NCBI GenBank assembly: GCA_964016885.1
Contig: OZ024740.1
Location: 64,852,001-64,916,000 of the forward strand
DNA: 64,000 nt
Direction of reading: 5' to 3'
DNA from: Eledone cirrhosa
Lineage: Eukaryota
Part shown: piece after piece, positions 4,241 to 63,876 of the stretch
How positions within the stretch are numbered: position 1 is the first letter of the stretch
Layout of the letters: each line of letters opens with the position of its first letter
Translations under genes and position numbers: made by a program
The notes under the pieces: generated by a model
The model's database searches: none
What the model saw: only the letters and a program-made list of their open reading frames with translations
Told to the model about the DNA's origin: nothing

Positions 4241-4916
4241 CCAACAGGATCTGTTTCACCAACTAATTTGTTGACAGAATTGATTAGCCTATCCTTCATC
4301 AGCGTGTGTAAGGCTATCCATTTCAGACAACACTAAAATAATCTAAAGCGACCGTCCAGCCACACCTGGTAGAGAGAAATTCACAGCGTGCCTAGGGCAG
4401 CAACCAGTGGACTCTGAAGGACGAGCTGCTAGAAAAGGCAGCCCAAACCACTCAGAGAAGTGTGCTCAACCAAACAGAGAAAGAGAGAGAAGAGACTGTT
4501 ATAAGGAGCGAAATATCGCGATAAATTAACGCTGTGAATTTCTCTCTACCACGATTCTTTTAGTGTTGTCTGAAATGCCTTACACACGCTGATGAACCAT
4601 AGGCTAATCATTTCTCTCAACACATTAGTTGGTGAAACAGATCCTGTTGGATTTGTACGTGTGTGTTAGATAGTTATCAAGGTACGTATTTGCACTTTGA
4701 TTTATACTTTTAATTATTGTGTGTCTACTTTGCCTTCCATGAGCTATAGATTCCATACACTGGTGGTTTTTCCCTGTTTGACTGATGGCGCACTATTTCT
4801 ATCTGGTATGTTATCTTCTCTGCATATTATATTATAAAGGGCTCGGGATTCCTTCTCCTTTGAGCACATTAATGACAGGGAAAAGCGAGAGTCTATGGCT
4901 CCGTTAATTTATCGTG
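4241..4916. mobile_element. HHR-bearing short element, family A, as head-to-head inverted duplication
   Basis: ~4241-4390 is inverted relative to ~4530-4655. The 3' end ...ggctccgttaatttatcgtg abuts (AT)n. Same family at 5851-6176 and 37938-38540. Confidence 0.75.
4582..4664 (+). ncRNA. Type I hammerhead ribozyme (GUA site)
   Basis: acacacg-CTGATGA-acca...tggt-GAAA-cagatcc/tgtt/ggatttg-TA-cgtgtgt: full core and all three stems. Confidence 0.9.
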
Positions 4917-5577
4917 ATATATATATATATATATATATATATATATATATATATATATATATATATATATATATATAAATAAATAAAAATAAGCTCCGTT
5001 CTTCGCTGTGACCCGTCTTTTGTCTGTCCCCTTGCTGCTATCCTCTATCTCCCTCTTCTTCCTCCTTCTCCCTCTTACTTTCGCTCAACCCCTCTGCTAG
5101 TCACCTTCTCTCCGCTAGCCTCCCACTATAACTATCTCTTTCTCACTTCCTCTTACTTTCACTCACTCCCTCTCTGCTAGTCATCCTCTCTCCGCTAGCT
5201 CACTTCCTCCCTCGTCCGCCACTGTACGCAGCATTTCTCTCGCTAACACTGCTACAGCTAAGACGTGTCTTTTCTCTCTCTCGTCAAAGTTCGCCAGTTG
5301 TTACGTTCGAAATGAATTGTTGACTTCATATTTTCCTATTTTTCCTCTCTTTACCTTGCTTCACCCTTCGTGTCTGTTTACATGCCCCCCCCCCTACTTT
5401 TATCCCAATAACTTATTTTAGTTATTGTTCGCCCCAGGCTGAGGTTTATTGTCTATAAAAGCGAAGAAATACCAATGATTCCTAGTAGACAACTGACGAC
5501 GATACCCCTTTCTTTCGCCCGTGACTTTTATTTTTCTATTATATATATATATATATATATATATATATATATATATA

Positions 5578-5768
5578 AAGGTATGTTATTCCGGGTTGTG
5601 TCGGAGGTAACCACAGTAAGCAATATATAGCTGAGTATAAACTTTTTAATATAGATGAAATTCTACAGGACTAGAACTGTTTCATTCTTTAGAAATCATC
5701 AGGAATCAGATTCCTGATGATTTCTAAAGAATGACCCAGTTCTAGTCCTGTAGAATCTCATCTATATT
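5578..5768. mobile_element. Palindromic HHR element, family B, between (TA)n tracts
   Basis: Arms ~5648-5707 and 5709-5768; unpaired tail 5578-5647 similar to 38565-38630. Confidence 0.75.
5660..5706 (-). ncRNA. Type I hammerhead ribozyme (GUA site)
   Basis: Reverse complement attc-CTGATGA-tttctaaagaat-GAAA-cag/ttctagtc/ctg-TA-gaat. The mirror copy at 5709-5757 (+) has GAAA changed to GACC. Confidence 0.85.
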
Positions 5769-5850
5769 ATATATATATATATATATATATATATATATAT
5801 ATATATATATATATATATATATATATATATATATATATATATATATATAT

Positions 5851-6176
5851 CACGATAAATTAACGGAGGCATAGGCCCTCGCTATTCCCTGTAAATAATG
5901 TGCTCAAAGGAGAAGAAATCCTGAGCTCTTTAAAATACAATATGTTGAAAAGGTAACACACCAGAGAGAGATATACACTGCGCTGTCTTTGGATTTGTAC
6001 GTGTGTTATATAGTTATAGAGGTATTTATTTACGCTTTAATTTATATTTTTAATTATCGTGTCTATAGTCTGCCTTTCATAGGTTATAGATTCCATACAC
6101 TGGTGGTTTTTTTCCCCTGTTTTATTGATAGCGCACTGTATATCTCTTTCTCGTGTGTTACCTTTTCAACATTGTG
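5851..6176. mobile_element. Family A element, truncated and inverted
   Basis: Starts cacgataaattaacggag, the reverse complement of the family A 3' end. Switches strand near 5988, inside HHR stem III (tttggatttgTAcgtgtg). Confidence 0.7.
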
Positions 6177-59993: not shown

Positions 59994-62496
59994 TACATGG
60001 AACTCTTTTAACCATCTTTTGTTCTTATATATTATGTATACTCCAGTCCTACAAACTGTAGAGTGCTTCTTATTCGATATCTGCATTGCTTTATTGTACT
60101 ACAATAAAACTCACCTCCTACATTATATATATATATATATATATATATATATATATATATATATATATATATATATATATATATATATATATATATATAT
60201 ATATATATATATATATATTAGAGATTCCTATTTTACGTTCTTGTATATGTTTGGTAAACAAGTATATTGAACACTAATGGTGTGAAGTTATTTAACAGCT
60301 AAACAGTTGCTAAATAACAACACCACATAGTTGCTATGTTTTCCACCATCTTATACGATCACATCTTGTTCAGTTACTTGCACATATATTTGTAACAACA
60401 TTTTATTGGAAAACAATATAATAATGCAATATTTTCCTTTTTTGTTAAATTCTTTTTCTAATTTCTATCAAACGCAATATTTCCCAATACATTATCGTGT
60501 TATGTGAAATGAATTGTTATGAAACTGAAACAATGTCTATAGTTACAAATGAATGATATGGTAAGACTTTCCAGCACACGGGAACGCTAAGAAGCCATGG
60601 TTGAGTTAAGAATTTGACAATCCGAAAACAAATGGCCGCTTCATAAATTATCGGCAAACATGATCAAACTTTAGTCAAAATTCTAATACACCTACCTTAT
60701 CCTTTCCCACGTTTCTCATATTTCTTTTAATCTCTAGGTCTAAATTAACACTTAGTCCACTGAAAGCTAGTAACACAGAGTAAAATATACATTTGCATGT
60801 GTGAATGAATGTATCCATGTGTGAATATATCTATGAATGTATGTGTGTATGTCTCTTTTATTTTGTATGGGTTTCTGTATATTTGTTCCCGGTGAAATAC
60901 TTTGCTTCTCCTATGACTTCTTACTTACCGATCCTCTGTTTATATGTGAAGCGTTGACTAAGCATTGACTTAACTTACATGGATTAATCACTGTATATCA
61001 AATAAATACAACGTTACCCGCATCTTCGGTCAAGAAGGACATTGAAGCGTCACTCACAGAGGCTGATACACCAGCCAGCTTGGCAGTCATTATAGGCAGC
61101 ACCAACAACGATCACTACCATTAACAAAAAGAGGGCAGCGACAGCAACAGGACAGTAATAACATCCCCGCATCATTGGTGAAAGAAGGCACCCGAACCTC
61201 AGTTAACAGCCTGGTAGCCCGAATTGGTAGCAGTTTCAACTAGCACCACAATTAACAAAAGGAAGGCAACGACAGCAACAGTGACATTAACAGCAACGAC
61301 ACATATGTGTATCAACATCTTACCAGCAATCACTACCATTAACAAGAGTAGACGTTTACTTACCATCTTTCCTTTTTCAACTTCCGCTTCGTTATTGCCT
61401 TTAACTCTATCTCCCAAACACACTCTACGCAAATGCTCTTAGCCCCCTCTCCGCTCCCTTTTGTACGCCATAAATGCAACTAAGGAACGAGTTCTTATTT
61501 CTTGGCCGGTTCAACATTTCCTCAACATTTGTTCAGAAATATCACACAACAAAGTTTTATGCATTCACGAGGATGGAATTTGGTTAAAGTTGGAGCATAT
61601 TGACTTACAGACTTAGGAAAATAAATTTTATACCAATAGATACATTTTCAATGCAGACAACTATCGTATTTTGTGGATTATGTATTGTGCCTCTCTTATA
61701 TATATATATTGTATTATATGGTGTATAAGTGTAAAAATCAATACTTTGGCAGACTATGTAGTCCGGACGTGCTTAACTTCCGGGATATCGATGATATTTT
61801 CTTGTCAGGATATTGAGTTGGTATCAGGTGATGTAGTAGTTCATTGTCACTAGATAATATCCAACGCTCTATCAATGTTTGAAGAGGGGGTGGTGGCGAT
61901 TTATATGTTTCGGTTTGTTTACACTCAGTATAGTTTTCGAGAAATAAAATATCTCTGAAACATTATGTTTTTAACTACGCACATTTTTGTCATCAGAACA
62001 TAAATGTGATTTTGGTGTCTTTTCATTTGTAGGTTTTCATTTTGTAATATTCTACCATGAAATAAAGTCTGACATGTACAGAAATCAAAGAATGTAACTT
62101 CATATCAGAAACGTATGTACACGAACTGACACACGCATGGACACATGTATACACGTACATTGTGCAGGCAAAAGCATATAGATTGGTATATTATTTGAAT
62201 ATTAAAACACACACACACACACACACACACACACACACACACACATACACTCACATGCCCCCCCCCCCCCCACACACACACGCACATATATATATATATA
62301 AAGAATAATAGATGAAATCGAAAATGCAACTGGAGTCTTATTTTAAAAGATATATATATATATTTATTTGGTTCCTTTACCGGTTTCGGAGTTTTTCTGC
62401 TTTTCAAAAGTAGAGTTGAGATGGAGGGTCTGTGGTTTTTTTCACATCTGTATATATATATACTCACAAGTATATATATATATATATATATATATA

Positions 62497-62800
62497 CTTT
62501 CCGACGGAATTGCTTCATTCACAAACATATATATATATATATATATATAAATATATATATATATATATATATGTTTGTGAATGAAGTAATTCCGTCGGAA
62601 AGGTACAGGAAAAAGAGTGCTCTATGTAGGCTACAGAGCTTATTAGTTATGTAATAAACAACATAAGATAATTATTTCATTTACCAGTGGTTTGTTGAAA
62701 GCAGAATTTGTATCTATTTTCAGCCGTCAGAATGATTAAAAAATATGTTTTTATTAAATATGGATTTGAAAACAAAATTTAAGAAATATGAAAGTGAGGC
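62497..62800 (-). mobile_element. pLTR-like 3' end related to 3455-3540, with decayed HHR (62678-62734) and short inverted tip
   Basis: agagtgctctat...tacagagct is shared with 3456-3483. Reverse complement catt-CTGACGG...CAAA-ccactgg-TA-aatg. Confidence 0.55.
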
Positions 62801-63173
62801 TGAGGAAAAAACGGCGAAGAAGAAGAGGGGAAAAAGAATAAATATATATATATATATATATATAAACAATAATTATCCAGAACATAAAAATACACACACT
62901 CAACCACGCGCATATACTTAAAAAGTACGTAGACGTATACTTTTTCACATAAGCGCATATGCGTCTACAGACAGGGACATACATATACATGAAATAATAA
63001 GAATAAATAAATAAATGAATAAGAACAAAAAAATAAAGGTTAAAAACAAAAAGAGACAGTAGGATGCGTGTTGACAACGGAGAGTATGAGGAGGAAGAGG
63101 GCGGAATGAAAACAACATAACAAATTAAACAAATACACGAGATGTGCATATACATAAATATATATATATATAT

Positions 63174-63876
63174 AATTAAGTTAAAAATGTACATCCATAT
63201 ATGTATACTGAAATACTAGTATGCATATGAATACACACACGTATACATATGTAGATGTACCAAGTCTTTCACTGGTTACTTTACTGTGAGTATCCAGCTA
63301 TTCTGTATGTAAACACACAGACAAACCGGTTTTTAGAGTCATACTGGTTTTTGAGGAAACACCTTTCCTCTATTCTCCAGAAATTTAATTTCGTTTCGTT
63401 ATTTGTTTTTATCGTCTCCGTTGAACCGGTACGTACTCACACTCTATGCAAATTAGTCTGCCCACTACTAATTTTCATAGAAAAAGCATATAACGATATG
63501 TGCTTTTACGATTCTCCAGAGAGGCCGGTAGATAGGTAAATATTGCTGATGAGTTGTAACAACAACGAAACTAGTTCAATATTCCTTGTCTGGCTTTCTG
63601 GAGAATAGAGGAAAGGTGTTTCCTCAAAAACCAGTATGACTCTAAAAACCGGTTTGTCTGTGTGTTTACATACAGAATAGCTGGATACTCACAGTAAAGT
63701 AACCAGTGAAAGACTTGGTACATCTACATATGTATACGTGTGTGTATTCATATGCATACTAGTATTTCAGTATACATATATGGATGTACATTTTTAACTT
63801 AATTGTTTAAGCGTCAGTCATACAAAAGTGAGTTACAAACGAAACGAAATTTAATTTCGTTTCGTTATTTGTTTTT
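63174..63876. mobile_element. Head-to-head HHR element
   Basis: 63174-63382 is inverted relative to 63596-63804. Confidence 0.75.
63539..63583 (+). ncRNA. Minimal type I hammerhead ribozyme (GUU site)
   Basis: aatattg-CTGATGA-gttgt/aaca/acaac-GAAA-ctag-TT-caatatt; perfect stems. Confidence 0.92.

What the first reader, a model, noticed from the sequence alone, without database searches (positions are those of the whole stretch)
4241..63804. Consistent 'tails-out' head-to-head architecture suggests double-ended priming from a break in (TA)n
Seen: at least 15 inverted duplications (4241, 5578, 6690, 15520, 22676, 25401, 28731, 30474, 30717, 37938, 38562, 40730, 43960, 46897, 53620, 63174). Using the HHR to define sense, the left arm is minus and the right arm plus in every case: both 3' ends face outward into (TA)n and the 5'-truncated ends are joined centrally. 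Usually one arm has the full 3' tail and the other stops at an internal TA/TAT(A), e.g. ttcctat|tacc vs ttcctat|atata. Arms overlap in sequence, unlike L1 twin priming. Inference: both ends of a cut (TA)n tract prime reverse transcription, one terminally and one at an internal TA microhomology, and the two cDNAs are then joined. Inverted pLTRs are known for Penelope; the invariant polarity and internal-TA priming are the notable part.
Basis: partly seen in the sequence, partly recalled or inferred. Interest (0 to 1): 0.75.

Follow-up and report, generated by a model that had tools for sequence, protein, structure and literature searches.

The report
Penelope insertions primed from both ends
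These mirror-image repeats are real, very common insertions of Penelope-like jumping genes in a shape already described for that class, and because almost every one pairs a long end with a short end at two fixed TA-rich spots, each was likely written by two separate copying starts, one from each side of a cut in a TA repeat.

Summary
The architecture is real. All 16 listed loci are head-to-head pairs of Penelope-like (PLE) 3' ends or related hammerhead retrozyme units. In 1.48 Mb of this genome, 181 of 181 directly joined pairs are tails-out. That polarity, the one-sided tail and (TA)n targeting are in print (Arkhipova 2013; Craig 2021), as are two internal RT start sites (Frangieh 2024). Corrections: 4241 and 15520 have an end outside (TA)n; 37938 and 43960 are long+long; and the 'terminal' end is also internal, since tandem copies run on through TAT. 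New measurements: 140 of 148 events pair one long with one short end (66 of 71 unselected, p 6e-15). Both start sites carry TA-repeat homology of 3 nt or more (long 7 of 8, short 10 of 16; null 24%). The short arm reaches further 5' in 22 of 140, against simple fold-back. Arms share rare variants. Best model: both 3'-OH ends of a break in (TA)n prime at two fixed sites, probably on one RNA, and the cDNA ends are then joined. An intact Hydra-type copy makes this testable. The scan reached this reading before on other DNA (409 notes, at least 38 genomes, one in this genome).

The parts
5..4240 (-). Decayed Hydra-type PLE (family C) in partial tandem: upstream repeat about 3480-4240, ORF pieces 1431-3320 (RWK and DKT motifs), 3' copy running on to about 130 nt left of the window, ending in (TA)n
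4248..4916 (.). Family B (540-nt hammerhead tandem unit): minus arm 4248-4531 fused to the 5' end of element C; plus arm 4553-4916 ending at the long site; full type I hammerhead at 4589-4657+
5578..5767 (.). Family D head-to-head pair, long left, short right (the script mis-called it short+short because the left arm was split)
5851..6176 (.).
6689..7515 (.). Hydra-type 3'UTR pair, long left, short right (tail about 160 nt); short arm reaches 157 nt further 5'
15519..16053 (.). Family E (431-nt hammerhead unit) pair; long left; right end 31 nt short and not at TA
22674..23581 (.). Family E pair with partial tandem, long left, short right
25396..25599 (.). Family A (Hydra-type PLE) stub, short left, long right (4 nt short of the modal site)
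27174..28699 (.). 544-nt hammerhead tandem unit pair, long left, short right (not listed)
28734..30422 (.). Hydra-type pair, short left, long right; the right arm starts in the end of the EN reading frame on plus
30473..30656 (.). Family A stub, long left, short right
30712..31350 (.). Neptune-like pair, short left, long right (tail about 33 nt)
35710..37882 (.). 574-nt tandem unit pair, long left, short right; sense not fixed independently (not listed)
37938..38540 (.). Family B pair, long+long (exception)
38562..40670 (.). Family D pair, long left, short-type right, about 1.2 kb of nested inserts in the centre
40721..41571 (.). Family F9 pair, short left, right end at a third site 175 nt before the long site
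43961..44345 (.). Family F10 pair, long+long (exception); hammerhead at 44115-44159 minus
46898..47083 (.). Family A stub, long left, short right
52325..52490 (.). Family A stub, long left, short right with a deletion (not listed)
53626..54055 (.). Neptune-like perfect palindrome, short left, long right (tail 33 nt)
63175..63875 (.). Family R (young 466-nt hammerhead tandem unit), short left, long right; hammerhead 63528-63599+

Best explanation
These are insertions of (TA)n-associated Penelope-like elements and of the non-coding hammerhead units they likely mobilise, and each head-to-head pair likely arises when both 3'-OH ends of a break in (TA)n prime reverse transcription at two different fixed sites of the element RNA. 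Shown: polarity, two fixed end sites per family 33-165 nt apart, one-long-one-short pairing, TA-repeat homology at most sites, shared source of the two arms. Inferred steps: (1) the GIY-YIG nuclease cuts both strands in (TA)n; because the repeat is self-complementary, both ends read ...ATA-3'; (2) each end pairs with a short UAU(A) at one start site, one RT taking the distal (long) site and the other the proximal (short) site, most simply on one RNA; (3) the arms overlap because the RT behind displaces the cDNA ahead, or the RNA is read twice in turn; (4) on linear mRNA both cDNAs often run off the transcript's 5' end in the upstream pLTR, giving 130-240-nt palindromic stubs, while on circular or multimeric retrozyme RNA they stop at scattered places; (5) the two cDNA 3' ends are joined by end joining and filled in.
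For: 181 of 181 same-family direct junctions are minus/plus in 1.48 Mb (150 versus 0). Of 148 events with both ends on the two sites, 140 are long+short, 5 long+long, 3 short+short; events not selected by a query: 66 of 71, p 6e-15 against the 50% ceiling for independent choice. The short arm reaches further 5' than the long arm in 22 of 140, by more than 50 nt in 14, including window 5851 and 6690; a copy folded back from a long-primed cDNA cannot do that, and one folded back from a short-primed cDNA cannot gain the tail. Junctions: 86 of 181 have 2 or more inserted bases, 50 overlap by 2 or more, 45 are blunt or 1 nt (rough, from BLAST ends, examples). TA homology of 3 nt or more: long sites 7 of 8 (p 3e-4), short sites 10 of 16 (p 1e-3), best-phase null 0.243; uncurated list 17 of 35 recurrent sites (p 0.004). 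Arms share a source: 15 variants private to one event are in both arms against about 0.3 expected (10,843 columns); within-event divergence is lower than between-event in 8 of 9 families; only 4 mixed-family minus/plus junctions against 150 same-family. Shared 5' stop: 50 of 66 unselected family-A arms start in one 19-nt stretch at a TTAGT/TCAGT motif 233 nt upstream of the ATG, and 13 of 14 family-D arms start in 7 nt, whereas retrozyme families B, R and E are scattered. In vitro, a PLE protein cuts and extends both strands from two RT start sites that bound the tail, and is predicted to be a dimer (Frangieh 2024).
Against: No empty allele was found, so cut geometry is unknown and the (TA)n could be partly a product of insertion. 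6 of 16 short sites have homology of 2 nt or less, and I chose one site per family by hand. The sequence beyond the long site is unknown for 9 families; two pattern searches found no tandem copy for the Neptune-like ones. Frangieh 2024 found no primer-template homology in the Anolis element. TAT at both sites could reflect nuclease preference rather than pairing. Shared variants also fit two RNAs from one locus or gene conversion, and A-to-G changes were not enriched among them (3 of 15 against 15 of 171, p 0.17). 8 of 148 events break the pairing rule and 33 of 181 have an end elsewhere or at a locus edge. Three long+short calls in the query-selected set (L221, L223, L235) are inner tandem joints, not outer ends. 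The transcription start is inferred from a motif; no RNA data were laid.
Confidence: 0.62

Rival explanations
1. Self-priming with nuclease resolution: a fold-back intermediate (on antisense RNA or cDNA) makes the inverted repeat, and the element's nuclease cuts it at two TA-rich sites, leaving a tail at one end before it is joined to the target.
For: Proposed in print: self-priming on an antisense template (Arkhipova 2013) and EN-mediated resolution of the tail (Craig 2021). Explains pairing, TAT at both sites and shared variants; allows either arm to be longer. 72 of 140 events have arms ending within 10 nt of each other.
Against: Needs staggered cuts of 33 to 165 nt depending on family. 86 of 181 junctions carry inserted bases, where self-priming predicts clean pairing. 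In vitro RT starts fall on the two tail boundaries and both target strands are extended.
Confidence: 0.15
2. Double priming as in the best explanation, but on two separate RNA molecules from one locus, with an asymmetric protein dimer fixing which site each subunit uses.
For: Overlapping arms need no strand displacement. Shared subfamily and rare variants fit one expressed locus. Long+long events exist (5 of 148) and 2 mixed-family junctions look genuine.
Against: Needs an extra rule to enforce one long and one short; mixed-subfamily pairs were not seen among 53 family-A events beyond single-base differences.
Confidence: 0.15
3. Single priming at the long site, fold-back of the cDNA 3' end, and loss of the tail from the second arm by microhomology joining to (TA)n, at or after insertion.
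For: Long arm reaches further 5' in 46 of 140 and level in 72; short sites often carry TAT.
Against: Short arm is the longer one in 22 of 140; the short end is fixed to a base while other TAT/ATA trimers in the tail are unused; single arms also end at the short site.
Confidence: 0.06
4. Assembly or library fold-back artefact.
For: 53620 has identical arms; no long read spans a locus.
Against: Arms usually differ by 1-18%, both ends sit on family-specific sites, junctions vary per copy, and raw reads of another sample show the same ends.
Confidence: 0.02

Closest known systems
EN+ Penelope-like insertions with inverted pLTR and one-sided tail (Arkhipova 2013 PMC3846280; Craig 2021 PMC8557442; Schostak 2008 PMC2377424)
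   Same: Inverted 5'-truncated copy joined at the 5' end, head-to-head as the usual form, tail at one end, partial tandems, transcript starting inside the upstream pLTR.
   Different: Tails here are 33 nt in the two Neptune-like families but 56-165 nt in the others (published 30-40). Pairing is counted (140 of 148). No target duplication can be read in (TA)n.
Poseidon from Anolis in vitro (Frangieh 2024 PMC11167929)
   Same: Two internal RT start sites bound the tail; both target strands cut and extended; AT-rich target.
   Different: There the start sites are not homologous to the target and no coupling between ends was tested; here most start sites match the (TA)n target by 3-7 nt and the two ends use different sites.
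Hydra clade PLEs (Craig 2021, section 11)
   Same: Family A has a 717+ aa single ORF with DKT, RWR in place of RWK, CxCX5C linker, no CCHH, CxxC and CxH in the EN, a hammerhead and (TA)n flanks.
   Different: Unit is 3.54 kb (published: generally under 3 kb); placement rests on motifs, no tree was built.
Non-LTR retrozymes (Cervera and de la Pena 2020 PMC7229834; Li 2026 bioRxiv 10.64898/2026.07.22.740005)
   Same: Families B, E, R and the 27174 unit are 431-544-nt tandem units with a type I hammerhead core and no ORF seen, dispersed and in arrays.
   Different: They show the same two end sites and inverted arm as coding PLEs; I saw no such description in the parts read.
L1 twin priming (recalled, no call)
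   Same: Both ends of the target prime cDNA; inverted segment; end joining in the middle.
   Different: L1 arms do not overlap and the second primer anneals at variable sites; here arms overlap and both sites are fixed.

Membership tests
EN+ PLE | Single ORF with RT followed by GIY-YIG EN | tested here: met
   Intact ORF in family A tandem unit; EN ends upstream of four other families. Domains read from motifs; Pfam gave no RT or EN hit on 6 window fragments and the intact ORF was not scanned.
EN+ PLE | Partial or full tandem (pLTR) structure | tested here: met
   Window 1-4240; 3.54-kb arrays of 4 units.
EN+ PLE | Inverted 5'-truncated copy and one-sided tail | tested here: met
EN+ PLE | Hammerhead in the pLTR | tested here: met
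   Cores in 9 of 16 listed loci; full descriptor or Rfam support for B, F10, R; family A read by eye; none found for the two Neptune-like families. Cleavage not tested.
Hydra clade | DKT, RWK, CxCX5C, no CCHH, CxxC and CxH around the EN end | tested here: met
   P0001 against Craig 2021 section 11; RWK reads RWR in family A and RWK in window element C.
Hydra clade | RT phylogeny | not tested
   No reference set in session; no tree built.
Neptune clade (30717, 53620) | CX2-5CxxC linker and CCHH motif in the EN | tested here: inconclusive
   EN fragments show a CX4CXXC linker and CXXC inside the GIY-YIG core; RT not recovered, Nematis not excluded.
Non-LTR retrozyme | Short non-coding tandem unit with type I hammerhead | tested here: met
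   B 540 nt, R 466 nt, E 431 nt; the 574-nt unit at 35710 has no hammerhead found.
Non-LTR retrozyme | Self-cleavage and circular RNA | not testable with these tools
   The one run search returned no RNA run.
L1-type twin priming | Non-overlapping arms, variable internal primer site | tested here: not met
   Arms overlap and both sites are fixed; definition recalled.

The most novel reading that the evidence does not exclude
(TA)n-targeting PLEs integrate by programmed twin priming: a protein dimer uses one RNA, anneals the two identical ...ATA-3' ends of a cut microsatellite to two built-in UAU start sites, and copies the same RNA twice by strand displacement. This one rule would produce the inverted pLTR, the one-sided tail, the stub palindromes and retrozyme insertions.
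Probability: 0.35. Interest if true: 0.7.

Novelty: new variant of a known kind. Interest (0 to 1): 0.42.

Why it matters
How PLEs make their inverted ends and tail is named as an open problem by Craig 2021 and is only partly answered by Frangieh 2024. The counts here (pairing, either arm longer, TA homology at both starts, a shared 5' stop in coding families only) narrow the models and give exact predictions. An intact, recently copied Hydra-type ORF with known start sites and target is at hand for the test. With 46 two-arm events in 774 kb of unselected DNA, the process has also shaped much of this genome. The architecture itself is ordinary for PLEs.

Tried and rejected
Rfam at gathering level found nothing; E-value mode gave mostly microRNA-like hits on palindromes and microsatellites, rejected as shape matches. 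My hammerhead descriptor was strict and found only a few full motifs (6 at score 13 or more against 0-1 in 5 shuffles). Pfam did not recognise the 6 window ORF fragments. Empty-site search among paralogues gave 4 weak cases of 64 tested, none an allele; reads and contigs could not bridge the (TA)n flanks. Searches for tandem continuation of the two Neptune-like long ends found none (34 and 3 matches; 16 and 3 loci read). The first microhomology run lost family A through an indexing slip and used single-copy templates; it was replaced. In one search the long and short labels of the 35710 family were reversed; fixed. The fold of the family-A start region was unremarkable (z -1.7). No structure or complex prediction was run. 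Runs X1 and X2 hold only small shares and are not used as evidence.
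Full report
Setting. The window is G000:C1:64852001-64916000 of a 3.0-Gb genome. It is dense in (TA)n tracts and local inverted repeats. I read the loci, fetched 200 kb of neighbouring DNA, 51 unselected 10-kb stretches and about 240 loci found by family searches, and pooled 1.48 Mb after dropping loci that duplicate the window or each other.

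Observation. All 16 listed loci are minus/plus pairs and four more were found. Sense rests on ORFs for 7 of the 16 and on hammerhead cores for 9. It is not independently fixed for the 35710 unit (4 events in the pool).

What the elements are. Family A (25401, 30474, 46897, 52325) is an autonomous PLE with a 3.54-kb unit in tandem arrays and an intact ORF that carries the Hydra motifs listed by Craig 2021. The 6690, 28731 and 1-4240 families have Hydra-type motifs; 30717 and 53620 have Neptune-like EN ends. Families B, E, R and 27174 are 431-544-nt hammerhead tandem units with no ORF seen, like non-LTR retrozymes.

Polarity. With 17 family references, and counting same-family arms at most 60 nt apart with no (TA)4 between, 150 junctions were head-to-head and 0 tail-to-tail in 1.15 Mb, and 181 of 181 in 1.48 Mb across 14 families. 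Tails-in neighbours occur only across a (TA)n tract (7 same-family, 41 mixed), one in the window at 62497-62800. Both outer ends are at TA in 148 of 175 events not cut by a locus edge. The 60-nt limit leaves out window events 28731, 38562, 40730 and 52325.

Two fixed ends, paired. 3' ends fall on two sites per family, 33 nt apart in the Neptune-like families, 56-97 nt in most others and about 120-165 nt in three. Of 148 events with both ends on these sites, 140 are long+short, 5 long+long and 3 short+short; without query-selected loci 66, 2 and 3 of 71 (p 6e-15). The other 33 of 181 events have an end elsewhere or at an edge. Three query-selected long+short calls are inner tandem joints, and window 5578 was mis-called short+short. 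The 16 stretches fetched last gave only 3 events (2 long+short, 1 other), too few for a separate test.

The long end is internal too. Tandem copies continue past the long site with TAT or ATAT: family A, B, E and R. Homology with (TA)n is 3 nt or more at 7 of 8 long sites and 10 of 16 short sites, against 24% for the better of two phases at nearby positions (one hand-picked modal site per family). The uncurated list gives 17 of 35. Short sites of families R, D, F10 and C2 have 1 nt. The continuation is unknown for 9 families.

One priming or two. The short arm reaches more than 10 nt further 5' in 22 of 140 events, the long arm in 46, and 72 are level. This excludes simple fold-back for the first group. 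About half of the junctions contain inserted bases, often local repeats, as expected when two ends are joined. Arms come from one source: same subfamily, 15 shared private variants against 0.3 expected and 171 one-arm variants. This cannot separate one RNA from one locus or gene conversion. Both arms stop at one place in family A (50 of 66 unselected arms, at an initiator-like motif 233 nt before the ATG; the initiator consensus is recalled) and in family D (13 of 14), but not in retrozyme families. The stop in the 53620 family is confounded by my query. A transcript 5' end inside the pLTR fits Schostak 2008; RT stalling at the ribozyme fold is the alternative.

Artefact and empty sites. Raw reads from another sample show both end types entering (TA)n and joints across the family-A centre (one listed joint rests on 54 reads from one start). 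No empty allele was found.

Literature. Craig 2021: passages and section 11. Frangieh 2024: parts 1-2 of 4, covering the main text, plus a term search of 3 supplement files with no hits. Arkhipova 2013: passages. Schostak 2008: passages. Li 2026: parts 1-3 of 5. Cervera 2020: passages. Head-to-head polarity, the one-sided tail, (TA)n preference and two RT starts are all in these. I did not find counted pairing, start-site TA homology or a double-priming account of PLE inversions in searches, which cover open-access papers and preprints only.

Earlier scan notes. My reading was set, which showed 409 notes in at least 38 genomes with the same conclusion, one from this genome. They are not independent support. 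I tested one lead from them (shared A-to-G changes) and did not confirm it.

Verdict. A real and known PLE architecture, with new counts that favour priming from both ends at two fixed, usually TA-homologous sites. Interest 0.42.

Noticed in passing
G000:C1:91474500-91494499 (L250, L252) and C1:437198500-437218499 (L251, L253): Arrays of four 3.54-kb Hydra-type units with open ORFs; the first array starts with an inverted short-ended arm. Multi-unit insertions suggest long read-through or circular templates.
   Followed up: partly
G000:C1:375635184-375643976: About 19 tandem copies of the 466-nt family-R unit, 98-99% identical, with an inverted arm at the left end.
   Followed up: no
window 62497-62800: Same-family tails-in pair across a (TA)n tract (30-nt plus arm, longer minus arm); similar forms recur at L111 and in the right neighbour.
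   Followed up: partly
L225, L227, L228, L246: A few family-A arms begin near the predicted hammerhead cleavage site, a possible second 5' stop from self-cleaved RNA.
   Followed up: no
L250 and L101: The family-A hammerhead core reads UUGAGAA in the intact subfamily, a U3-A8 variant of the canonical core (canonical form recalled).
   Followed up: no
window 43217-43960; L077; L092; L101: Chimeric insertions that join pieces of two families without a (TA)n tract, suggesting template switches between different PLE RNAs.
   Followed up: partly
window 25618-27010: Single-armed, 5'-truncated Neptune-like copy with a decayed EN frame on plus.
   Followed up: no
window 50584-51560 and 47640-49000: Further decayed Hydra-type RT and 3' sequences on the minus strand.
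   Followed up: no
window 18196-21553, 13393-14129, 16386-17629, 33695-34339: ORF fragments of other mobile elements: a near-complete LINE-like RT/endonuclease on minus, two more LINE-like pieces, and a Helitron-like piece (labels from recalled motifs).
   Followed up: no
window 42520-42760: AT-rich imperfect palindrome not flanked by (TA)n and with almost no match in the pool; not part of the PLE set.
   Followed up: partly
window 59100-59281: Very high-copy short repeat, also abundant in runs X1 and X2, probably a SINE.
   Followed up: no
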